This document shows positions 2,736-26,905 of a stretch of DNA of 64,000 bases, piece by piece. This stretch comes from an uncultured Gammaproteobacteria bacterium (GTDB taxonomy: Bacteria; Pseudomonadota; Gammaproteobacteria; CAWCPV01): positions 384,001-448,000 of the forward strand of contig CAWCPV010000014.1 in NCBI GenBank assembly GCA_963797555.1, written 5' to 3'. How positions within the stretch are numbered: the first letter of the stretch is position 1; each line of letters begins with the position of its first letter. The notes beneath the pieces are model-generated. The model did not search any database. It saw only the letters and a program-made list of their open reading frames with translations, and was not told where the DNA came from. A program made the position numbers and the translations under genes.

Positions 2736-3201
2736 CTAAGGGCAGCGGGAGGAATCGCTCGGAACCTTGCCCACGATGCGCAGGAAGGCCCCGAAAAGCC
2801 CCATGTTGCCCATCGCCTCCATCTTTGGGCCTCCGAACTTCAAGCGGCCGAACATCATCGCCTTGAACGGCCCGTACTCTCCCGTCGGCACCGACATCCA
2901 AATTCTTGGTTTCGACCGCACCGCCATAACCGCACATGGCCTTGCTGTCCTTCTTGTTGAATCGAAGCTCCACGCGCGGGCTATCGGGGCAGTCGGTGCG
3001 GTACATTTCGATCACCTTGAAGCCGCGGCCCTTGTCGTTCTCTATCCACTTCTCCAGACCCTCGGTCAGCGTCGAATCCGCGTTCCATGCTTCACAGGCT
3101 TGCTTGGCCCATTCTGCCGACATCAGAACCGGTTCAGCAGCGACCGCGGTGCCGAGCACAAAGCAGGCGAAGCTCGCCAACGCTACGAGACGGTATTTCA
3201 T
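2736..3201 (-). pseudogene. secreted SCP2 sterol-binding-domain-like protein, broken near 2885
   Basis: Signal peptide, then MSAEWAKQACEAWN...YRTDCP...CGYGG in one frame; C-terminus GEYGPFKAMMFGRLKFGGPKMEAMGNMG in another. Confidence 0.65.
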
Positions 3202-4449: not shown

Positions 4450-5535
4450 CTAGTGTAGTGCTTCATTCTGTTTAGAACTTAAACGTGCGTTGGCGCGGAT
4501 GACCTTCTGCAGGATGTCCTTAGCCTTGGCGGTCCAGATGAAGGGTTTGGGATTGGCGTTGTGGGCATCGACATAGCGGTTGATGGCATGGATCAACTCG
4601 GGGACGCTTCGAAACACGCCACGGCGCAACCGATCCACAGTCAGGTCGCGGAAGAATCGCTCGACCATGTTCAACCAGGATGCTGAGGTGGGCGTGAAAT
4701 GGATGTGGAAACGCGGGTGTTTTCCCAGCCATTTCTGAACGTTGGGATGTTTGTGGGTGGCGTAGTTGTCGCAGACCAAGTGCAGTTCCTTGTCCTTGGG
4801 CGTCTCGCGGTCGATTTGGCGCAGGAAGGTGAGCCACTCCGTGTGGCGATGGTGCGGCTCGCAGCGGGCAATCACGGAACCCTCCAAGGTGTTCAGGGCA
4901 GCAAACAGTGTCGTGGTGCCATGGCGCTTGTAGTCATGGGTCATGGTCGCAGCCCGCCCCTTCTTCAGCGGCAGGCCAGGTTGGGTACGATCCAGCGCCT
5001 GAACCTGACTCTTCTCGTCGCAGCACAACACCAAAGCATGCTCCGGGGGGGACAGATACAGCCCGACGATGTCCTCCAACTTCTCGGTGAATTTCGGGTC
5101 GCGCGATACCTTGAAGGATTCGACACGATGCGGCTTCAGCCCATGGGCATGCCACACGCGCAGCACCGTGGTGTCGCTCACTCCCATTTCCTTAGCCAGG
5201 GTCCGCGTACTCCACTGTGTCGCTGCTAAGGGCTGGGTCTGAGTCGTGCGTCGCACGATCTCGGCGGCATCCACCTTGGGCTGACGACCTCCGCGCGGCA
5301 GGTCACACTCGATGGCCGCCAGCCCGCCTTGCGCATAGCGCTCCCGCCAACGCCCAACCTGCACACGCCCAATCTTGAGTTCCGCCGCGATGGCCTTGTT
5401 CTCCATGCCCACCGCCGCCAACAGCACAATGCGCGCTCGGCGGGCCAGCCTCACACTCGTGGTGTTCGAACGCGACACACGCCTCAGGCTCCGCTGTTCT
5501 TCCGCGCTCAGTCGGACCATCGGGGCTACTCGCAT
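4450..5535 (-). CDS. IS630 transposase
   Basis: HTH N-terminus; DEK...QAL, THDYKRHGTTTLFAAL, DNYATHK, SWLNMVERFF motifs. Confidence 0.95.
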   Translation of the reverse strand: MRVAPMVRLSAEEQRSLRRVSRSNTTSVRLARRARIVLLAAVGMENKAIAAELKIGRVQVGRWRERYAQGGLAAIECDLPRGGRQPKVDAAEIVRRTTQTQPLAATQWSTRTLAKEMGVSDTTVLRVWHAHGLKPHRVESFKVSRDPKFTEKLEDIVGLYLSPPEHALVLCCDEKSQVQALDRTQPGLPLKKGRAATMTHDYKRHGTTTLFAALNTLEGSVIARCEPHHRHTEWLTFLRQIDRETPKDKELHLVCDNYATHKHPNVQKWLGKHPRFHIHFTPTSASWLNMVERFFRDLTVDRLRRGVFRSVPELIHAINRYVDAHNANPKPFIWTAKAKDILQKVIRANARLSSKQNEALH

Positions 5536-5615
5536 CAGTGCTCTCCTGTCTTGGCTTCATAGCCCTGGACAGCGATAGATCATATATGTTCCGTTAATTA
5601 CCAAGCACTACACTA
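4451..5615 (-). mobile_element. IS630-family insertion sequence, copy 1
   Basis: Terminal IRs TAGTGTAGTGCTT / AAGCACTACACTA, TA duplicated within a CTAG target. Confidence 0.95.
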
Positions 5616-5685
5616 GCTCCAAGCTTTTCGCTGCGAACCGGTCGTCAGGGCGCTTCCCGAGGCGGCCAATTCTCCCATGCCTGTA

Positions 5686-6431: not shown

Positions 6432-6655
6432 TGTAAAAACACAAGGTTGCGGGTCAGAAAGCCGCGTTCGAGGGGGGAAGATCCGCCTGAGCGTCCGCTG
6501 GGAGGCGCGCCGCCCGCGCCTGCGGGCCGCAGCGTGGCGGCCGGCTCCAGGTCTCGAACGGTGACTGGGCCAGCCGCGGTCGCGACAACGGTACCCCAAA
6601 GTGAGTAGTTTGCGATCTAGAGGAGAAAGATCGGCGGGCAGCTTAGCCCATGTCG

Positions 6656-7990
6656 TTATACACATCTCGGGCTCTGTGAGGCCCGTTGTGCGTCCATGGC
6701 GAGCACGAAGTCGCGGGTTCGCTGCAGCCCGATCCACAGGCTTTGCGGACCCGGGAAGCCGTCGCCCTTGCGATTGAGGAAGCCGCCGAAGCTCGCCACC
6801 ATACGCACCATCGCATCGAGCGAGGGGGGTGTCTCAGGCGGGGGCTGGCGCTTGGTGACGATATACACCGCGCGCCATTCCTCCTCGGCGAACACCACGT
6901 TGCAGGGCATCTGCGGGCAGTCGCGCCCGAGCAGGGTGAGGTAGAGCACCCGCCAGGCGATGATGAGGTAGAAGGCGAGCGCGGGCTCCAGGCGTTCGAG
7001 GGTCTCGAGCTGCAGCTTCTCGATGCGGCAGCCGCTTTTGAGGATCTTGAAGAACACCTCGATTTGCCACCGGCAGAGGTACCATTGGAGCTTCTCCAGG
7101 GCCTGCTCGGCGGTCTCGACGGGGAGGCTGGTGAGGAGCAGCCACTCGATGGGCTCCTCGCCCTGGGGCGGGTCCACCTCGCGGGCCAGCACGGCGCTCA
7201 CCTCGATGTCCGCCAGGGTGCGGTCCGAGCGATGCGGGGCCTTGAAAGTGAGGCGTGCGACGCGCAGTTGCTGGTGGATGCGCCGCGCCGGACGCCTAGC
7301 GGTGGCGGGCAGGTCGAATTCGGCCTCGGCCAGCACCGGCGCGCTTGCGAGCCGGGCGCGCTCGGCGCGGATGAGCCACTCGGCGCAGGGCTGCGTGGCG
7401 GCGCGTTCCGCGAGCACCTCGTAGATGTCGGCCTCGCGGTCGGCGACATAGACCAACTGGGTCTCGGGCAGGGACTCGATGAGCTCCGAGACGCGTCGAT
7501 AACCCTCCAGCCAGCGCAGGCTCTCTTTTTCCTCGATGGGCCGGCGGCCCTGCTCCTTGCCCAGACTGCCCGCCTCGCGGGTCCAGCTCCATAGATCCAA
7601 TAGCCCCAAGGGCACCCGCTCGGGGGTCACGGCGAGGGTGGGGTGCAGGTACAATCCACGGCGGGTCTCGTAGTTGAGCGGGCCCAGCCCGACGATGTCG
7701 TTCTTGCCGCTATAGTCCCCTTCCGTGGTGTCTTGGATGCACAGCACCACCGAGTATTCGCGCATACGCTGCTCGGTGCAGGCGTAATGGGGCTCGAGCA
7801 CCGCCTGGGCGGTGACCTGGGGATGGTCGAACAGCCGATAAGCCGCCAAGGTCTCGGCCCAGCCGCCACAGGCGGTGGGAATGCTCTGCATGGGATGGGC
7901 TCCCAGCTTCTCCAGGGTGCGTCGCGCCCGGCGGTTGAGGCGCGCATCACCCAAGTCGATGGCGGCCAGCTCCTCGGCCAGGGCATTCAT
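6656..7990 (-). CDS. IS4-family (Tn5-like) transposase
   Basis: LGDARLNRR, IQDTT, EKESLRW, ADREADIYE, Y-x2-R-W-x-IE-x5-LKSG (YREK), GGFLNRKGDGFPG. Confidence 0.95.
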   Translation of the reverse strand: MNALAEELAAIDLGDARLNRRARRTLEKLGAHPMQSIPTACGGWAETLAAYRLFDHPQVTAQAVLEPHYACTEQRMREYSVVLCIQDTTEGDYSGKNDIVGLGPLNYETRRGLYLHPTLAVTPERVPLGLLDLWSWTREAGSLGKEQGRRPIEEKESLRWLEGYRRVSELIESLPETQLVYVADREADIYEVLAERAATQPCAEWLIRAERARLASAPVLAEAEFDLPATARRPARRIHQQLRVARLTFKAPHRSDRTLADIEVSAVLAREVDPPQGEEPIEWLLLTSLPVETAEQALEKLQWYLCRWQIEVFFKILKSGCRIEKLQLETLERLEPALAFYLIIAWRVLYLTLLGRDCPQMPCNVVFAEEEWRAVYIVTKRQPPPETPPSLDAMVRMVASFGGFLNRKGDGFPGPQSLWIGLQRTRDFVLAMDAQRASQSPRCV

Positions 7991-8859
7991 GCGGCTCCCC
8001 CGAGCGCCCGGCGAAAGCGGCCATCGAGCGGATACACATAGACATCCTTGATGGGCAGCGCCTCACGGTCGAGCTTGCCCCGCCCGGTGGTCTGCCCCAG
8101 ATGATGCCAGTTGGCCGCCCGGTAGCAGGTGCCCGCGAACCGGCCGGCCTCGACAAAGGTCTCCAGCAGCACCGGGCGTACCCCGTAGCGCTCTTCGAAC
8201 TCGCCCGGCACCTGCCGCGCGGCCCGCCCGAGGACCTTGGAGGCCAGGTTCGCCACCCGCACCCACGGCAGAATGAGAAACCGCGCATGGTTCAGCACCT
8301 GCCCCAGGTGCTGCGCACGGCTTGGCGCATCCCAGCCAATCCAGCGGTTGCGCACGCCCACCTTCCAGGCCGCGGCCCCGAAGCCCATGGCCCCCACCAC
8401 ACCCCCGTCCCAGCGAATCAGATAGCGCAGCTGGGCACCGGGCAGCGGCCGGTAGCCCAAATAATGGTACCGGTCGATGAGCCCATTCCACAGCGCCGAG
8501 TCCGCCGGGTCAGCAACCGGCGCCAAGTGCAGACCCTGCAAATCCCGCACTGCGCCCACCACCGGTACCTCAGCGGGCCAATCTTGCGGCTCGCGCGACA
8601 GCCCCTTCCCATTGCCGTTACCGTTGCGCGGCGCCGGCAGCTCGATCCAGCCTGCCCGATGCAGCCGCAGCAGCCCGACTCGACAGCTCATCAGCTTGGG
8701 CCTACCGGCTGCATCGGTCCACCCCAGCACCCGACACACCCGCCGCGCCACCTCGGCTCGCACTCGGGGCTCCGCCAGCCAAGCCTCCCGCCGTATGCTC
8801 TCAAGCTCCCCCGCGCTCAGCACGCGCCCACCCAACCACCTCGGCAACCCCTTCTCCAT
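7987..8859 (-). CDS. DUF4338 domain protein (DruA-like domain) carried by the IS
   Basis: YHYLGY...GAQLRY, AAWK...R..WIGW, RFLILPWV...NLAS, LLETFVE...GTCYRAANW...G.T.GRGK; ATGA overlap with the transposase start. Confidence 0.85.
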   Translation of the reverse strand: MEKGLPRWLGGRVLSAGELESIRREAWLAEPRVRAEVARRVCRVLGWTDAAGRPKLMSCRVGLLRLHRAGWIELPAPRNGNGNGKGLSREPQDWPAEVPVVGAVRDLQGLHLAPVADPADSALWNGLIDRYHYLGYRPLPGAQLRYLIRWDGGVVGAMGFGAAAWKVGVRNRWIGWDAPSRAQHLGQVLNHARFLILPWVRVANLASKVLGRAARQVPGEFEERYGVRPVLLETFVEAGRFAGTCYRAANWHHLGQTTGRGKLDREALPIKDVYVYPLDGRFRRALGGAA

Positions 8860-8958
8860 CTGCTCCCCCTCGTCACCTGGTGAACGATGGGGGCATTGAA
8901 TCAGCTTCCGGGGGCTGTGTCCAGAGGGGCAGCAGCCCTAGCTACGGGGAGACGTGTA

Positions 8959-9755
8959 TCCGCCGTAGGGACGGCGGTCACCCGCCGCCCCCGGCACAGA
9001 CCCGGACGTGCAGTTTTTCCGCATCCGGTTCCTCGGTTGTACTCGCTTCCGCGCAGACGGCCACTCGCCGTCTGTTGGCTATTGCCCGCAGTGAGGTTCG
9101 CTTGCGTTCTCCGGCCCGACTCTGTCCGGCGCAAGTTTCCTATACGGGCTGCGTACTTCCGCCAGGTCCTTCCCCTTGTAACGGGCTTTCCCCGTCTCCG
9201 AGTACTATGCCTGGTAAGACTCCCCACCAGCATACGGCGGGCGTTCCCTTTGACAGTACTTCTCCGCCTGCCTGCTCCGAAGTTCCCTTCGTCCACTTAG
9301 GTTCCGGCTTAACCCTGTGTCCGGGTTTCCCCTTCCGTGCCTCAATAGCCGTATACCGTATGACCGAGCTTCCCTCCGGCCAGGAGCCGATGGGGCCTCC
9401 TGGGTTCTCCGACGCCTCTCTTCCTGCATGCCACGGCCTGAGGACTCCGGCGGACCTCCACGCCCTCGCCAAAACGGGCGCTTCGTGTAGCCTTCGGGCA
9501 CGTTAAAACCCTCGGCATCCGCAACAAGCTTATCTCGAAGCTGTACCAGCACTTCAGGGAGCGCGGCCTCCCCTACGGCCTACAGGATACTCTGCCTACG
9601 CTTAGCCCGTCTTGTTCGCAGCCTCTCGGCTACTCCGCCACGGACCCAAGGCTTCGATACGGGTGGGTGGCTAACCCTTATGAAGATGCCTTACGACCTC
9701 TTCTCCCGACAGGGACTCTCACCCTGCAAGAAGCGCCGAGCTTTGCCCAGCGCGA
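8959..9755 (-). ncRNA. ORF-less (non-autonomous) group II intron, boundaries +/-1 nt
   Basis: Domain V GAACCGGATGCGGAAAAACTGCACGTCCGGGTC (8999-9031); domain VI GGGGCGGCGG...CCGCCGTCCCTAC; 5' end TCGCGCTGGGC...GGGTGAGAGTCCC; excision restores the IS inverted repeat. Confidence 0.85.
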
Positions 9756-9866
9756 TAACGCCATGAGCTTAGCCGCTTCGTGTGAACGCCGTCTCTACTT
9801 CACTTCGCTGAACTGCCGATGGACACTCGCGGCTGCGCCTCGAAGCCGTGCGGCTCGGTACGTCGG

Positions 9867-10152
9867 TTATTTGATTCCGGCGATGAAGTCGTCGATCGGT
9901 ATCGCGGGGAGCGTCTCGATCTTCACACTCCCCCGAGAACCGATCTCCATGGAGACCCGGCTCACGGTCATGTTGTCCGGCGCGTCGATGATGGTCACAA
10001 AGTCATACGGCCCGAGCACTGCGTACTGCGCTACCACGCGGACTCCGAATGACTCCACCTCGCGGGCAACGGTCTTGATGCGCGCAGGATTCTCTTTCAC
10101 GGTTTCCGAGCCCTTATCCAGTCAGCCTACTGAGCATGATATATGTAGCCAT
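9867..10152 (-). CDS. GYD domain protein (one extra base near 10118)
   Basis: MATYIMLSRLT / DKGSETVKENPARI...YAVLGPYDFV...GSVKIETLPA. Confidence 0.8.
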
Positions 10153-11700: not shown

Positions 11701-12786
11701 CTAGTGTAGTGCTTCATTCTGTTTAGAACTTAAACGTGCGTTGGCGCGGATGACCTTCTGCAGGATGTCCTTAGCCTTGGCGGTCCAGATGAAGGGTTTG
11801 GGATTGGCGTTGTGGGCATCGACATAGCGGTTGATGGCATGGATCAACTCGGGGACGCTTCGAAACACGCCACGGCGCAACCGATCCACAGTCAGGTCGC
11901 GGAAGAATCGCTCGACCATGTTCAACCAGGATGCTGAGGTGGGCGTGAAATGGATGTGGAAACGCGGGTGTTTTCCCAGCCATTTCTGAACGTTGGGATG
12001 TTTGTGGGTGGCGTAGTTGTCGCAGACCAAGTGCAGTTCCTTGTCCTTGGGCGTCTCGCGGTCGATTTGGCGCAGGAAGGTGAGCCACTCCGTGTGGCGA
12101 TGGTGCGGCTCGCAGCGGGCAATCACGGAACCCTCCAAGGTGTTCAGGGCAGCAAACAGTGTCGTGGTGCCATGGCGCTTGTAGTCATGGGTCATGGTCG
12201 CAGCCCGCCCCTTCTTCAGCGGCAGGCCAGGTTGGGTACGATCCAGCGCCTGAACCTGACTCTTCTCGTCGCAGCACAACACCAAAGCATGCTCCGGGGG
12301 GGACAGATACAGCCCGACGATGTCCTCCAACTTCTCGGTGAATTTCGGGTCGCGCGATACCTTGAAGGATTCGACACGATGCGGCTTCAGCCCATGGGCA
12401 TGCCACACGCGCAGCACCGTGGTGTCGCTCACTCCCATTTCCTTAGCCAGGGTCCGCGTACTCCACTGTGTCGCTGCTAAGGGCTGGGTCTGAGTCGTGC
12501 GTCGCACGATCTCGGCGGCATCCACCTTGGGCTGACGACCTCCGCGCGGCAGGTCACACTCGATGGCCGCCAGCCCGCCTTGCGCATAGCGCTCCCGCCA
12601 ACGCCCAACCTGCACACGCCCAATCTTGAGTTCCGCCGCGATGGCCTTGTTCTCCATGCCCACCGCCGCCAACAGCACAATGCGCGCTCGGCGGGCCAGC
12701 CTCACACTCGTGGTGTTCGAACGCGACACACGCCTCAGGCTCCGCTGTTCTTCCGCGCTCAGTCGGACCATCGGGGCTACTCGCAT
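11701..12786 (-). CDS. IS630 transposase
   Basis: 361-aa protein identical to 4450-5535. Confidence 0.95.
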   Translation of the reverse strand: MRVAPMVRLSAEEQRSLRRVSRSNTTSVRLARRARIVLLAAVGMENKAIAAELKIGRVQVGRWRERYAQGGLAAIECDLPRGGRQPKVDAAEIVRRTTQTQPLAATQWSTRTLAKEMGVSDTTVLRVWHAHGLKPHRVESFKVSRDPKFTEKLEDIVGLYLSPPEHALVLCCDEKSQVQALDRTQPGLPLKKGRAATMTHDYKRHGTTTLFAALNTLEGSVIARCEPHHRHTEWLTFLRQIDRETPKDKELHLVCDNYATHKHPNVQKWLGKHPRFHIHFTPTSASWLNMVERFFRDLTVDRLRRGVFRSVPELIHAINRYVDAHNANPKPFIWTAKAKDILQKVIRANARLSSKQNEALH

Positions 12787-12866
12787 CAGTGCTCTCCTGT
12801 CTTGGCTTCATAGCCCTGGACAGCGATAGATCATATATGTTCCGTTAATTACCAAGCACTACACTA
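11702..12866 (-). mobile_element. IS630-family insertion sequence, copy 2
   Basis: Same IRs and CTAG target as copy 1; identical translated ORFs at offset 7251. Confidence 0.95.
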
Positions 12867-14344
12867 GCGGGTATCCCCGCAACCCCGGTACTGACCCTCT
12901 ACAAGTTCAACGGCGACCTGGACATCCCCTACTACAGCGTCGCGGGCTTCGGGCGGTCCGGCCCGGGGCCGCGGGCCGGTACCCTCGCCCAGGGGACCTC
13001 CGTCATCCCCTGCCTGGTGATCCGTGACGGCGAGCCCCTGACCGACAGCAGCGGGACGCCCTACGTGGGCTTCGACATCGTGGTGGACACCCGCAAGGCG
13101 ACGCGGGCATCCACTGAGCAGTTCAGGAGCGCCGTCGCCCGCCGCCAGTCGACGACCGTGGCGAACCACCACTGCGGCAGCCGGGTGAAGTACGTCATCG
13201 ACGCGCGCAACCTGTATCCCCTCACCAAGGCCCCCTTCTTCGATCCCCCGCCCTCGGGCCGAAGGCGGGCGGCCGGCGGCAAGGGCGACTTGGACGAGAT
13301 CGTCCGCGCCTTTCACAACTCGGAGGCCTGCGAGCAGGCCAACCGCTCCCTCATCGGCAGGCGGGACGCCCTCGACCGGGCCTGGGAGCGCTTCGGCGCG
13401 GTAGGCCGCGGCGGCTGGCCGGCCTCGTCCCTCGCCCAGGCCCGTCACCTCGACTACGCCATGCGCACCGCGCTCTTCGAGGGCCATCTCGACCGCGGCT
13501 GCAACGCCTACGGTGCGTGCGAGCGGGACATAGTGGCGCTCTCCATCCGCAACCGTGGAAAGGAGCTTTGCCTCAGCGGTCAGGGCTGCAGCCGCCCGGG
13601 CGACTTCGAGGGAGTCGCCTCCAAGGTCTCCCAGTACAACATCTGGGACGAGTACCTCACTCAGGTCTCGGGCCTCACCTCCTGTTTCCTGCGCACCGAC
13701 CTGGACGGCACCTACTACGACAAGATCCGCGCGATGTACGAGCAGAGCGTGGGCGACGTGCAGCGCATCCTCTTCGGCGACGACACGGATCTCCGCGAGA
13801 TCTTCCCCGGCGAGTCCCTAAGCGACCTCAAGGCGCTGCGTCACTACTACCACGCCCCCGCGATGGGCAAGTGCTTTCCCAACGACCCGCGGGTCGAGTA
13901 CATCTCCGCCGCGGTGGCGCGCAAGGGCAGCGACTACGCCCTGCTCGTCAATACCCGCATCCGGGCAGACGCGCCCAAGGACGGCGGCTACCTTTTTCGC
14001 GACTTCAGCGTCAAGGAGGCGGACGACCGGGACGTGACCTCGGTCGTCGACCGGTATCCGGGCTTCGTTGTCGACGGCCGCAAGGTCGACCTCAAGGGGT
14101 CCTCCGGCTGTGCCCCGTACGGCATCCCCCCCGGCTGCCGCTTCAAAGACATCAGACGCTACCGCCGTACGCCCTCTTGGCTCTCCGGCGGCCGGCCGCT
14201 GGAGATCTCCTGCCGGGTCCGCGCCAGAAGCGCTGCCTGCCAGGGGCCGGAAACGCTGGAGACGGTACGGGTGGGCGAGACCTGCGATACCCAGATGCGG
14301 CCTGTCGCCGGGATTCGCTGAGCGTCTTGGGGGCACCGCGGCCG

Positions 14345-25013: not shown

Positions 25014-25246
25014 TGGTTGATGACGGGCACACCGGCTTGTGGGGATCATTCTCGACGGTCGCGGCCCGGGAACCCCCACAGATCGGATTTGCGCGCACTC
25101 CGCTTCATACTGGCGGTCGCAAGCGTCTCCGATACTCGTAGTCGGCTCGCCCTCGGTTAGACGGGTGCAAGGCGCGCTGGCAAGGACGCTTCGAATTCTT
25201 CCGCGCGCCGCTCGAGAAATGGGACAATCACGGCAAGAGGCATGCT

Positions 25247-26905
25247 CCTGATTCCGTGACTTCGCGTCTCAGCGGATGGCCGCAACCTGCTGATTTATCA
25301 TTGCAGTTCAGCTAAAATCGGGCCGCACTCCAGCTCACCCGGCAGGTGAACGATGAAGCGGTTCATCTTGGAGCAGTCCGATGAGGAATTTTACACCTCC
25401 CATTCTGGTCTGGCCTTGGTCGGTCTTTGCGGCAACCGCTTTAGCGGGTTGGGCAAGGCGCTGAAGCAGGCGATCCCGCTACGCCACGGCATCTCCCATG
25501 AAGACGTAGCCAAGAGCTATCTGGGGTTGATGTGTTTGGGCAAGAGCGACTTCGAAGCGGTCTCCAACGTCCGAGAGGACGATTTCTTCCGCCAGGCGTT
25601 GGGGCTGGAGCGGGTACCCTCGCCAGAAACGCTGAGGCAGCGTCTCGACGAGCACGCAGCGGTCCTGCGGGAGGTCATTGACGAGGCCGATATCGAGTTC
25701 ATGGTCAACGCCAAGGCACCGGTCAGTGCGCTCAAGACCGGTCATGTGCCGGTGGACATCGATGTCTTTCCCATGGACAACTCCGGGACCAAGCAAGAAG
25801 GAGTCTCGCGCACCTACCACGGCTATGACGGTTATGCGCCGATCGCGACCTACGTGGGAACCGAAGGGTGGTGCGTCGGCTGTGAGCTGCGAGAAGGCAA
25901 GCAGCACAGTCAGAAGGAATTCGGCTAGGTCTGGGAGCGCATCCTGCCGCGGGCCAGGCGCCTGACCAAACTGCCGCTGCTGGTGCGCCAGGACAGCGCC
26001 CACGACGCCTTGGAGAACCGGCTGCGCTACCTCGAAGAGGAGGTGGACTTCATTATCCAGTGGAACCCTCGGGGCGAGGACCCTGCCCATTGGCTGGAGC
26101 GCGCCGAGCGCCAAGGGGCATGGGAGACACCCCGACCCGGCAAGCGCGTGGCGCTGTTCAGCGTCGTCGAGGAGCACCCCCATCGGGAGCACACCTACCA
26201 CGTTCGCCGGGTGATGCGGGTGACCGAGCGCACCATCGACAAGAAGGGCCAGGCGCTGTTGGTACCGGAGCTGGAGCTCGATGGCTGGTGGACCTCGCTC
26301 GCCTATCCGGACGCGGAGATCGTCGCCCTGTACCGGAGGACCTCCGAGCAGTTCCACAGCGAGTTCAAGACCGACCTCGATATCGAACGGCTGCCCTCCG
26401 GGAAATTCGACACCAATGACCTGGTGCTCGCCTTTGCCGTGTTCGCCTACAACATCCTGCGCTTCATCGGGCTCATCGGGCTGACCGGCGAGTCGGCTCC
26501 CCTGCGCCATCCGGCCAAGCGCCGGCGGATCAAGACCGTCCTCCAGGAACTGATGTACCTCGCCGCCCGGTTGGTCGCCACCGCCCGCAGACTGAAGCTG
26601 CGCTTCAGCCGGCTCTGTCCCGGCTTCCGCGCCTTCGAGCAGGTGTATTACCAACTCGCCTTCGGGTAGCTAGGACGACCTCCATAGAAACTCGACCCGG
26701 GCCTCACCAGACCCCGGTGTAAACCTACGCCCGAAATTCAGCGTCCAAGCCTCAAAGCCCCGCCGTCACTCCTGCGCCGACGAGGGTCTACGCCCGCTGT
26801 ACATAGCCGGCGTCACCGGTTGGCTAAAAACTAACCAACTCAACTGAGAATAGCTCCCATTCTCTCGCGCCCCGGGCGCTCGGAGATTCAAGTCACGGAT
26901 CCAGG
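25247..26905 (+). mobile_element. IS1380-family insertion sequence
   Basis: IRs CCTGATTCCGTGACTT / AAGTCACGGATCCAGG; 5-bp duplication ATGCT on both sides. Confidence 0.9.
25353..26669 (+). pseudogene. IS1380 transposase with in-frame TAG at 25926
   Basis: YTSHSGLALVG, PSPETLRQR, DIDVFPMDNS, EQFHSEFKTDLD.ERLPSGKF.TN, AYN. Confidence 0.9.

What the first reader, a model, noticed from the sequence alone, without database searches (positions are those of the whole stretch)
6640..9774. ORF-less group II intron inserted inside the terminal inverted repeat of a DUF4338-carrying IS4 element
Seen: identical 9-mers AGCTTAGCC flank a 3.1-kb element. One end reads CATGTCGTTATACACATCT; the other reads CATGGCGTTA, then ~797 nt, then TACACGTCT, so deleting the insert rebuilds a 17/19-matching IS50-like end. 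The insert ends in group II domains V and VI. Known: IS50/Tn5 ends are the transposase binding sites, and group II introns often home into mobile elements, usually within ORFs or after hairpins. Inference: this intron family targets a transposon end. That gives a multicopy non-essential landing site and probably immobilises the IS, because RNA splicing cannot repair a DNA end. This is a three-layer nest: intron in IS, within an IS630-bracketed segment.
Basis: partly seen in the sequence, partly recalled or inferred. Interest (0 to 1): 0.85.

Follow-up and report, generated by a model that had tools for sequence, protein, structure and literature searches.

The report
Stray intron inside a transposon end
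A small self-splicing intron with no gene of its own really does sit inside the end of one jumping gene, but this looks like an off-target landing by an intron family that normally homes to integron recombination sites and that has an unusually altered catalytic core.

Summary
A 797-nt ORF-less group II intron (minus strand, 8959-9755) splits the right 19-bp inverted repeat of one Tn5-like IS (6649-9765), which has 9-bp target duplications.

The reading that this family targets transposon ends is not supported.
- Twenty other ends of this IS in the genome are intact; only this one is occupied.
- The three other ORF-less copies lie elsewhere: the target duplication of an unrelated IS, an attC-like site, and unique DNA.
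- None of 75 distinct metagenomic 5' exons carries the IS end, nor do the 38 relatives from genomes that I parsed.

Covariation across 40 introns fixes EBS1, EBS3 and gamma. The family consensus target is ..CGTTA|GGC, the R' core of integron attC sites, in the sense orientation. The IS end plus its flanking duplication mimics IBS2 and IBS1 but mismatches IBS3, so this is ectopic retrotransposition. The split end probably immobilises that IS copy (inferred).

A published precedent exists for introns in IS inverted repeats: RmInt2 in ISRm17.

More novel is the clade itself. Its termini are 5'-UCGCG...GA-3', and its domain V triad is AAC, matched by a J2/3 change. It is nevertheless multicopy and widespread.

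The parts
6640..6648 (.). Left copy of the 9-bp target-site duplication AGCTTAGCC
   Evidence: Other copies of the IS also carry 9-bp duplications.
6649..6667 (+). Left 19-bp inverted repeat of the Tn5-like IS (CATGTCGTTATACACATCT), intact
6656..7990 (-). IS4/Tn5-type transposase, 444 aa
   Evidence: Pfam Tnp_DNA_bind, DDE_Tnp_1 and Dimer_Tnp_Tn5; NF033590 at 406 bits
7987..8859 (-). DruA/DUF4338-like protein, 290 aa, first gene of the IS
   Evidence: PF14236 at E 2.6e-43. It is present in all full IS copies, which are 99.6-99.9% identical.
8950..8958 (-). Inner 9 bp of the split right inverted repeat (TACACGTCT on the minus strand); this is the 3' exon. G at +6 is unique to this copy; the 20 intact ends have A.
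8959..9755 (-). ORF-less group II intron, 797 nt, running from 5'-UCGCG to GGA-3'
   Evidence: Boundaries come from empty sites and from four copies with different flanks. Rfam hits. No Pfam hit in its ORFs.
8959..8997 (-). Domain VI, with bulged A at 8966 (8th from the 3' end) and terminal GA at 8960-8959
   Evidence: Read from the sequence and from the alignment with relatives
8999..9031 (-). Domain V. The triad is AAC (9030-9028). Its middle A lies opposite G9001. The loop has 5 nt.
   Evidence: Rfam alignment; alignment of 60 relatives
9215..9217 (-). J2/3 (UUA). Gamma is U9217, which pairs with the last intron nucleotide A8959. U9216 co-varies with the middle base of the triad.
   Evidence: 40 of 40 introns are complementary at gamma. 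The next column reads U in all 15 AAC introns and G in all 25 AGC introns. Alignment shown.
9442..9442 (-). EBS3 (C). It pairs with G at +1 in the other copies and mismatches the U at +1 of the IS site.
   Evidence: this is the top-scoring column against 3' exon +1, 82% complementary. The only U/C cell is this window's copy.
9500..9505 (-). EBS1 (UAACGU) in a terminal loop of domain I. It pairs with IBS1 GCGUUA (9761-9756).
   Evidence: Compensatory change in copy C2:14491. Covariation at exon positions -1, -4, -5 and -6.
9525..9533 (-). Candidate EBS2 (AUAAGCUUG) in an internal loop. It pairs with AAGCU.CAU (9772-9763), most of which lies in the flanking duplication outside the IS.
   Evidence: This is inferred; no covariation test was run.
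9756..9765 (-). Outer 10 bp of the split right inverted repeat (CATGGCGTTA on the minus strand); this is the end of the 5' exon
9766..9774 (.). Right copy of the 9-bp target-site duplication
9867..10100 (-). GYD-domain gene upstream of the intron on the same strand, a possible source of read-through transcription
   Evidence: Pfam GYD. No terminator-like site on the minus strand between the gene and the intron.
4450..5617 (-). IS630 copy, 1168 bp
11701..12868 (-). IS630 copy, identical to the first and in direct orientation

Best explanation
The 797-nt insert is a deletion derivative of a group II intron. It has lost its reverse-transcriptase gene but keeps the whole ribozyme. It is mobilised in trans by the endonuclease-less reverse transcriptase/maturase of a related full-length intron in the same genome.

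The intron recognises DNA through three elements: EBS2, EBS1 (UAACGU) and EBS3 (C). These fit the family's usual target, ..AGCUU..RCGUUA|G. In relatives that target is most often the R' core (GTTA|GGC) of integron attC sites, read in the orientation of the cassette.

At one copy of a Tn5-like IS, a look-alike of that target arose by chance. The outer 7 nt of the right inverted repeat (GGCGUUA) give a full IBS1, and the adjacent 9-bp target duplication gives an IBS2. The intron reverse-spliced there and was copied into DNA. This was an ectopic retrotransposition, not homing to transposon ends.

The 19-bp transposase-binding end is now split 10 + 9 by 797 bp, so this IS copy can very probably no longer use that end, although its genes remain intact.

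Shown: the anatomy, the empty sites, the pairings and the distribution of copies. Inferred: the trans mobilisation, the order of molecular steps, and the loss of IS mobility.
For: It is an intron with exact boundaries.
- RF02005 scores 90.6 bits.
- The ribozyme is 81% identical to a 2025-nt intron at C4:299460. That intron carries a 414-aa open frame with RVT_1 and matches TIGR04416 at 345 bits against a cut-off of 300.
- Empty sites fix both ends.

It has been mobile.
- Four ORF-less copies exist at 100, 99.9, 99.9 and 93.5% identity, each in a different flank.

The pairing elements are real.
- Relative C2:14491 has EBS1 UGAACA and exon UGUUCA.
- Across 40 introns, exon positions -1, -4, -5 and -6 are 97, 97, 100 and 85% complementary to reference positions 251, 254, 255 and 256.
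- 3' exon +1 pairs with position 314 (82%).
- The last intron nucleotide pairs with position 539 (40 of 40).

The site is off-target rather than end-specific.
- 1 of 21 ends of this IS is occupied.
- The occupied end is the only one whose flank gives an in-register IBS2 (AAGCU plus CAU). The other ends reach runs of 2-4, except the mis-spaced other end of the same copy.
- Of 1659 RCGTTA sites in the genome, only 24 have an IBS2 run of 5 or more, and this site is one of them.
- Its +1 base is the only U opposite EBS3 C among the 40 introns.

The family's usual target is different.
- 62 of 75 distinct metagenomic 5' exons end in GTTA, 53 end in CGTTA, and none carries the IS end.
- RYYYAAC lies 45-150 nt upstream in 23 of 70 exons, against 2 of 70 controls.
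- The exon-proximal 100 nt fold more stably than their own upstream control in 55 of 66 cases.
- Own copy C7:294062 sits in GCCCTAAC...GTTA|GGC. The same cassette end at C16:31698 is followed by different DNA.
- The genome has an integron integrase, TIGR02249 at 502 bits.

Public runs.
- A soil DNA run holds an intron-free end of this IS, the C4 and C3 junctions, and one further junction.
- Contigs from two peat RNA libraries cover only the intron span.
Against: - Two of the four ORF-less copies lie within 10 bp of an IS terminus. Besides the window copy, C4:743176 sits inside the 5-bp duplication, 1 nt outside an unrelated 1668-bp IS. That is more than site density alone would predict and may reflect a real bias toward IS ends.
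- Other equally good or better IBS1+IBS2 sites in the genome are unoccupied, so sequence match alone does not predict occupancy.
- EBS2 is inferred from one loop. It was not tested by covariation, and published IIE/IIF work found that EBS2-IBS2 did not matter for splicing in vitro (PMC3753933, passages read).
- The attC assignment rests on motif and hairpin statistics without an attC covariance model. The folding control differs in G+C (0.53 against 0.47), and only a third of exons show a strict R'' motif.
- The only intact IEP found is on an intron 81% identical to this one. The assembly is 84.6% complete, so the true helper may be missing.
- No direct evidence shows splicing at this site or loss of IS mobility.
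Confidence: 0.78

Rival explanations
1. RmInt2-like homing to the inverted repeat. On this view the intron lineage uses the IS end itself as its homing site, gaining two multicopy, non-essential targets per IS.
For: The repeat gives a perfect 6-7 bp IBS1. A published precedent exists: all RmInt2 copies lie in the ISRm17 inverted repeats (PMC4615759). The left repeat also contains CGTTA.
Against: 20 of 21 ends are empty, although at least three near-identical intron copies and an IEP are in the genome. None of 75 metagenomic exons, and none of the 38 genome relatives parsed, carries this end. EBS3 mismatches the site. IBS2 lies outside the IS.
Confidence: 0.07
2. A mechanistic or selective bias toward IS termini in general. 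On this view, DNA at or next to transposon ends is preferentially invaded or preferentially retained, whatever the IS family. Possible causes are strand-transfer or repair intermediates, stalled forks, bound transposase, or simply the neutrality of such sites.
For: Two of four ORF-less copies lie within 10 bp of the termini of two unrelated IS families. In the second case the intron arrived after the IS, because it splits the left ATTAG duplication. Bacterial introns are known to cluster with other mobile DNA (PMC4424553, passages read).
Against: There are only four copies. The two positions differ: one is 10 bp inside, the other 1 bp outside. In both cases the intron-sense 5' exon keeps a plausible IBS2/IBS1. 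The second site looks like a pre-existing ..ATTA|GG target that the IS happened to hit. Metagenomic exons are dominated by attC-like sites, not IS ends.
Confidence: 0.12
3. The insert is a normal part of the IS, or is some other repeat rather than an intron.
For: Domains V/VI score below Rfam's gathering threshold (29.8 against 40). The termini and the triad are non-consensus.
Against: Intron-free IS copies are the rule. Domain I-IV scores E 4.5e-24. The insert is homologous to an RT-encoding intron. EBS1, EBS3 and gamma all show covariation.
Confidence: 0.01

Closest known systems
RmInt2 of Sinorhizobium meliloti GR4, in the inverted repeats of ISRm17 (PMC4615759; passages read; its Fig. S1 not seen)
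   Same: It is a bacterial group II intron with an endonuclease-less IEP, found inside the terminal inverted repeat of an insertion sequence. It shows relaxed target specificity, and EBS/IBS pairing decides the site.
   Different: All RmInt2 copies lie in those repeats, which are its homing site. Here only 1 of 4 copies and 1 of 21 IS ends are involved. The intron here is ORF-less, its consensus target is attC-like, and the IS family differs (Tn5-like IS4).
Group IIC-attC introns such as S.ma.I2 (cited in PMC4424553 and PMC7923331; passages read)
   Same: They are endonuclease-less bacterial introns whose preferred targets are integron attC sites.
   Different: IIC introns lack EBS2, recognise a DNA stem-loop, and lie opposite to cassette transcription. 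This clade matches Rfam D1D4-6, has an EBS2-type loop and a long EBS1, and lies in the cassette (sense) orientation at GTTA|GGC.
IIB-type introns and class E fragments in integrons and CALINs of halophiles (PMC7923331; abstract and sections 7 and 11 read)
   Same: They are non-IIC introns next to or in attC arrays, in the same orientation as the cassettes. One has predicted non-consensus boundaries (UUGCG..GU). Class E fragments occur in a Halorhodospira CALIN, and relatives of the present IEP occur in Ectothiorhodospiraceae and Chromatiales.
   Different: That paper reports single cases with no conserved exon. Here a whole clade shares ..CGTTA|GGC, with EBS1 and EBS3 covariation, and boundaries are fixed by empty sites.
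Bacterial classes E/F (IIE/IIF) ribozymes (PMC3753933; passages read)
   Same: Shared features are a compact IIB-like ribozyme, a 5-nt loop in domain V, an endonuclease-less IEP, and a long domain VI as described for IIF.
   Different: Class membership was not tested by IEP phylogeny. The published members were chosen with consensus-type splice sites. The clade here has UCGCG...GA termini and an AAC triad.
ORF-less bacterial introns served in trans by a related IEP (PMC4424553; passages read)
   Same: It is an ORF-less copy in a genome that also holds a related ORF-containing intron.
   Different: The review treats IEP-less introns as mostly splicing-only elements. Here three copies at 99.9-100% identity in different sites indicate recent mobility.

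Membership tests
Group II intron (ribozyme) | Domain I-IV architecture recognised by a covariance model | tested here: met
   RF02005 scores 90.6 bits against a gathering score of 49, E 4.5e-24. All six genomic copies tested also hit it.
Group II intron (ribozyme) | Domain V with the AGC (or CGC) catalytic triad | tested here: not met
   The triad reads AAC (9030-9028), with A opposite G. RF00029 scores only 29.8 bits, below 40. The same holds in 15 of 40 relatives and in 17 of 17 metagenomic introns that could be parsed. This is a deviation inside a clade that nests among AGC introns, so homology still places it in the family.
Group II intron (ribozyme) | Boundary consensus 5'-GUGYG...AY-3' | tested here: not met
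   The boundaries are 5'-UCGCG and GA-3', fixed by empty sites. Relatives grade from GUGCG..AC through GCGCG..AC to UCGCG..GA.
Group II intron (ribozyme) | EBS1-IBS1 pairing that defines the 5' splice site | tested here: met
   85-100% complementarity with compensatory changes.
Group II intron (ribozyme) | Gamma-gamma' pair between J2/3 and the last intron nucleotide | tested here: met
   40 of 40 are complementary (C-G 14, U-A 18, A-U 5, G-U 3). This column has the highest mutual information of all columns.
Group II intron (ribozyme) | Domain VI with a bulged branch-point A 7-8 nt from the 3' end | tested here: met
   A8966 is unpaired between CCC and CGGC and is 8th from the end. This was read by eye, without a covariation test.
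Mobile group II intron (retroelement) | RT/maturase ORF in domain IV | tested here: not met
   No Pfam hit in 4 internal ORFs. Nucleotides 655-1928 of the ORF-containing relative are missing.
Introns that home to IS inverted repeats (RmInt2 type) | Most or all copies lie in the inverted repeats of one IS family | tested here: not met
   1 of 4 copies, 1 of 21 ends, 0 of 75 metagenomic exons and 0 of 38 genome relatives.
Group IIC-attC introns | Class C ribozyme without EBS2, inserted antisense to the cassettes | tested here: not met
   The best Rfam model is D1D4-6, with an EBS2-type internal loop. Copy C7:294062 lies in the sense orientation after a cassette ORF.
Bacterial class E/F introns | IEP groups with class E or F; 5-nt domain V loop; alpha' in a terminal loop | tested here: inconclusive
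   A 5-nt loop and an endonuclease-less IEP were seen. No IEP tree with named class members was built, and alpha' was not examined.
IS4 family, Tn5/IS50-like | DDE transposase with a Tn5 N-terminal DNA-binding domain and C-terminal dimerisation domain; 19-bp ends; 9-bp duplication | tested here: met
   The resemblance of the end to the Tn5 outside end is recalled, not tested.

The most novel reading that the evidence does not exclude
The window's intron may belong to a widespread, still-mobile clade of group II introns whose active site has been rewired in a coordinated way.
- The domain V triad is AAC instead of AGC. Its partner base is swapped (G.A to A.G), and the J2/3 nucleotide next to gamma changes from G to U. 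From recalled crystal-structure work, not checked here, those three positions form one layer of the catalytic triple helix.
- In a subclade the first nucleotide is U instead of G, and the penultimate nucleotide is G instead of A. Those two positions are recalled to contact each other.
- The clade homes to the R' core of integron attC sites in the sense orientation. That would be a second, independent invention of attC targeting, outside class C.
Probability: 0.45. Interest if true: 0.78.

Novelty: new variant of a known kind. Interest (0 to 1): 0.58.

Why it matters
Its main value is as a worked case showing how a chance match of IS end plus flank creates an ectopic intron target and freezes one IS copy.

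The clade behind it matters more. [quoted passage not shown] A natural, multicopy, transcribed lineage with AAC, a matching J2/3 change and UC...GA termini would give a ready-made set of compensated active-site variants for testing how the catalytic triplex and the first/penultimate nucleotide contact work.

Sense-strand attC homing by a non-IIC clade would also bear on integron biology. An intron inside R' is removed from the RNA but splits the recombination site in the DNA.

Tried and rejected
- A single-sequence minimum-free-energy fold of the whole intron (z -2.65) did not give a usable domain map. I relied on comparative columns instead.
- An exact 24-nt search for the intron's 5' end in metagenome contigs found nothing. 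A degenerate pattern was needed.
- Searching 60 same-class genomes with the intron DNA gave matches in only 4 of them, and the genome has no close relatives in the set. One of the four, G039, is unpublished. No claim here rests on it.
- The idea that gapped transposition intermediates expose the target strand was considered for the copy next to the second IS. I dropped it because the intron-sense strand across the duplication is the strand that is missing in such an intermediate. This is reasoning only.
- Paper searches found no description of UCGCG termini, of non-AGC/CGC triads, of non-IIC attC homing beyond PMC7923331, of Rfam D1D4-6 class identity, or of the DUF4338-transposase pairing. 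The library lacks most subscription journals and the Zimmerly intron database, so this does not prove novelty.
- The runs laid are contigs. Parts without cover, such as the window-specific flank in the soil run, say nothing. The call showed neither a spliced nor an intron-free form of this particular locus.
- The first shuffle-based folding test failed (division by zero) and the second timed out. I replaced it with a paired upstream control.
- The scan's earlier notes held nothing for this genome.


Full report
**1. What is there**

On the plus strand the window reads AGCTTAGCC (6640-6648), then CATGTCGTTATACACATCT. About 3.1 kb further on it reads ...AGACGTGTA (8950-8958), then 797 nt, then TAACGCCATG (9756-9765), then AGCTTAGCC (9766-9774).

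The two long ORFs between lie on the minus strand.
- One is a 444-aa Tn5-type transposase with Tnp_DNA_bind, DDE_Tnp_1 and Dimer_Tnp_Tn5. It matches NCBIfam IS4 model NF033590 at 406 bits.
- Upstream of it, overlapping by 4 nt, is a 290-aa DruA/DUF4338 protein.

The 797 nt are a group II intron on the minus strand.
- Rfam RF02005 (D1D4-6) scores 90.6 bits, E 4.5e-24.
- Domains V/VI give only a sub-threshold match, RF00029 at 29.8 bits against 40.
- None of four internal ORFs hits Pfam.

**2. Empty sites and copy census**

BLAST against the laid genome (5.35 Mb, 20 contigs, 84.6% complete) finds many copies of the IS at 99.6-99.9% identity. All of them stop matching exactly where the intron begins. 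Their right ends read CATGGCGTTATACACATCTC on the minus strand without interruption, and they have their own 9-bp duplications.

A regex scan finds 20 intact ends and one occupied end. The inserted block is therefore UCGCGC...GGCGGA. There is a 1-nt ambiguity on either side at this locus, and the other copies resolve it.

The intron has four full-length ORF-less copies: C14 (this window), C4:743176, C3:686125 and C7:294062, the last at 93.5% identity. All are bounded by TCGCGC...GGCGGA in unrelated flanks.

A 2025-nt relative at C4:299460 is 81% identical in the ribozyme. It carries a 414-aa open frame with RVT_1 and TIGR04416 (345 bits, cut-off 300) and no endonuclease domain. The ORF-less form lacks nt 655-1928 of that relative.

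Paralogous empty sites confirm the boundaries for C4:299460, and the 5' boundary for C2:14491 and C5:203336.

**3. How the intron reads its target**

Relative C2:14491 has UGAACA in the loop where the others have UAACGU, and its 5' exon ends UGUUCA instead of GCGUUA.

To widen the comparison I fetched 78 loci from species genomes by IEP similarity. Of 83 sequences (78 loci plus 5 own), 41 could be parsed for both ends by anchored regexes. The rest were cut by contig ends or missed the regexes. I dropped L063 because its domain V did not parse, which left 40.

In a MAFFT alignment of the first 600 nt of those 40 introns:
- Exon positions -1, -4, -5 and -6 are 97, 97, 100 and 85% complementary to reference positions 251, 254, 255 and 256. 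This is EBS1, window 9505-9500.
- 3' exon +1 finds its best partner at position 314. This is EBS3, C at 9442, with 82% complementarity.
- The last intron nucleotide is complementary to position 539 in 40 of 40 introns (C-G 14, U-A 18, A-U 5, G-U 3). That column has the highest mutual information of all. It is gamma-gamma', with gamma at U9217.

A candidate EBS2 (AUAAGCUUG, 9533-9525) lies in the internal loop where the Rfam model leaves an unpaired stretch. I did not test it by covariation.

**4. Why this IS end, and only this one**

In intron sense the occupied site reads GGCUAAGCUCAU-GGCGUUA|UACACG.
- IBS1 is complete.
- IBS2 (AAGCU.CAU) is in register, and most of it comes from the flanking duplication, not from the IS.
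- +1 is U opposite EBS3 C. This is the only U/C cell among the 40 introns.

None of the other 20 ends has an in-register IBS2. Their runs are 2-4 nt. The other end of the same IS copy has AGCUUA, but 6 nt too far upstream.

Genome-wide there are 1659 RCGTTA sites. Only 24 have an IBS2 run of 5 or more, and this site is one of them. Several others in that set are unoccupied.

The occupied end also differs from all intact ends by G instead of A at +6. I cannot say whether that came before or after the insertion.

**5. What the family normally targets**

*Own genome.*
- Copy C7:294062 follows a 205-aa ORF and a GCCCTAAC...GTTA|GGC hairpin. The same 400 nt recur at C16:31298-31698 and are followed by different DNA after ..GTTA, as expected for a mobile cassette.
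- Copy C3:686125 sits at GACGTTA|GGC in unique DNA, about 500 nt from an ISL3 transposase gene.
- The genome encodes an integron integrase, TIGR02249 at 502 bits.

*Species genomes.* Nearly all relatives have 5' exons ending CGTTA.

- Of 79 introns with at least 20 nt of exon, 75 exons are distinct. Of these, 62 end GTTA, 53 end CGTTA, and none carries the IS end.
- RYYYAAC lies 45-150 nt upstream in 23 of 70 exons, against 2 of 70 intron-internal controls.
- The last 100 nt of the exon fold more stably as DNA than the 100 nt further upstream in 55 of 66 cases (mean -18.0 against -9.9 kcal/mol). G+C also differs, 0.53 against 0.47.
- Individual examples are textbook attC shapes, such as L119, L125 and L127.

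Where 3' ends could be parsed, a constant A precedes GGC, GCC or GGG. I read that A as the last intron base, which gives GTTA|GGC as the target. That reading is inference.

The orientation is that of the cassettes. Published IIC-attC introns lie the other way round (PMC7923331 section 11).

**6. The second IS-end case**

Copy C4:743176 is followed, after one G, by a 1668-bp IS. That IS has inverted repeats CCTGGATCCGTGACTT, about 24 matching places in the genome, and one copy in this window at 25246-26905. It makes 5-bp duplications.

Here the right flank is ATTAG, and the left flank with the intron removed is ...CCATTA+G. So the intron split the left duplication after the IS had arrived.

Two of four copies therefore lie within 10 bp of IS termini. 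I keep this as an unexplained excess and as a minor rival explanation. In both cases the intron-sense exon carries its own IBS elements.

**7. Consequences at this locus**

These points are inferred.
- The 19-bp end is split 10 + 9 by 797 bp. Transposases act on DNA, so this end should be dead. The IS genes are intact, and the copy differs from the others by about 2 nt in 2311.
- The intron lies upstream of the IS genes, with only 10 nt of IS as 5' exon. Any precursor must therefore start outside the IS.
- A GYD-domain gene ends 112 nt upstream on the same strand, and no terminator-like site lies between on that strand.

In public runs, contigs from two peat RNA libraries cover 8959-9762 and nothing of the IS interior or the flank. 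They continue into other 5' exons after TAACGC. This shows near-identical introns present in RNA libraries at other sites. It does not show splicing here.

**8. The unusual ribozyme**

The clade's domain V reads GAACC...GGGUC, so the triad is AAC with its middle A opposite G. Relatives with consensus termini read GAGCC...GGAUC, with G opposite A.

The J2/3 base next to gamma is U in all 15 AAC introns and G in all 25 AGC introns. From recalled structural work, that base stacks on the middle triad pair in the catalytic triplex. Because the AAC group looks like one clade, this is one concerted change, not a statistical covariation, and other clade-specific columns score as high.

Within the AAC clade the 5' end grades from GUGCG (L047) through GCGCG to UCGCG. 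All eight UCGCG introns have G rather than A as the penultimate base, if the three 'AG' ends are read one base longer. The first and penultimate nucleotides are recalled to interact.

All 17 of 17 metagenomic UCGCG introns that could be parsed have GAACC, and 3 of the 17 are ORF-less, at 598-782 nt.

The review PMC4424553 (passages read) gives AGC or CGC and GUGYG...AY as the rule. My searches found no description of this variant. The intron database and most subscription journals were not searchable, and the supplements of the papers cited were closed.

**9. Verdict**

Its central inference, a family that targets transposon ends, is wrong.

The best reading is an off-target insertion by an attC-homing, trans-mobilised ORF-less intron.

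As an intron in an IS repeat it is a new member of a known kind, with RmInt2/ISRm17 as the precedent. The clade's termini, triad and sense-strand attC preference make it a new variant worth bench work.

Noticed in passing
G000 C5:219787-223362 (locus L005, about 2951-3069): The second ORF-containing copy of the family is interrupted at nt 1379 of its IEP gene by about 1.8 kb. The inserted DNA contains a different group II intron (RF01999, D1D4-2, 112.7 bits), so this is an intron nested inside an intron's RT gene.
   Followed up: partly
window 25246-26905, and about 24 places in the genome: A 1668-bp IS with inverted repeats CCTGGATCCGTGACTT and 5-bp duplications. Its transposase frame appears split into 192-aa and 248-aa pieces in the copy I read (C14:488518). 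The family was not identified.
   Followed up: partly
G000 C2:14492-14545, C4:651292-651351, C4:34873-34925, C3:840693-840745, C3:160599-160649: A repeated element of about 100 nt with a perfect hairpin (GGATTGAGGCGACCCGAAGGGTCGTTTCAATCC), preceded by CCTAAC and followed by GTGTTCA|AGAAGCC. One copy is occupied by a family member whose EBS1 has changed to match. Its nature (attC variant, REP or other) is unknown.
   Followed up: partly
window 7987-8859, and every copy of the IS: A DruA/DUF4338 protein, named after a Druantia defence component, is the first gene of a Tn5-like IS with about a dozen copies. Its role in the IS is unknown. NCBIfam has no model for it, and the paper search found nothing on the pairing.
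   Followed up: no
G000 C7:47556-48500; C16:31-35 kb: An intact integron integrase (TIGR02249 at 502 bits), and cassette-like arrays located elsewhere (CALIN-like). One array includes a 3' fragment of an ORF-containing intron at C16:34193-34690.
   Followed up: partly
loci L061, L085, L087 (genome contigs); L143 (metagenome): Head-to-tail or closely spaced intron pairs. In some, the 3' exon of one intron is the 5' end of the next. In L143 two introns sit in consecutive similar attC sites 1 kb apart.
   Followed up: no
window 4450-5617 and 11701-12868: The 1168-bp IS630 element has about 20 copies at 99.8-100% identity genome-wide, which suggests a recent burst. This region of the genome is very rich in IS elements.
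   Followed up: partly
loci L098-L105 (Psychrobium, Psychromonas, Shewanella): Relatives with consensus termini (GUGCG..AU) in marine gammaproteobacteria sit after ..TTA-N6-GGGCGTTA| with T at +1. From memory this resembles the ends of Vibrio-type chromosomal attC repeats. EBS3 co-varies accordingly, with A opposite T.
   Followed up: partly
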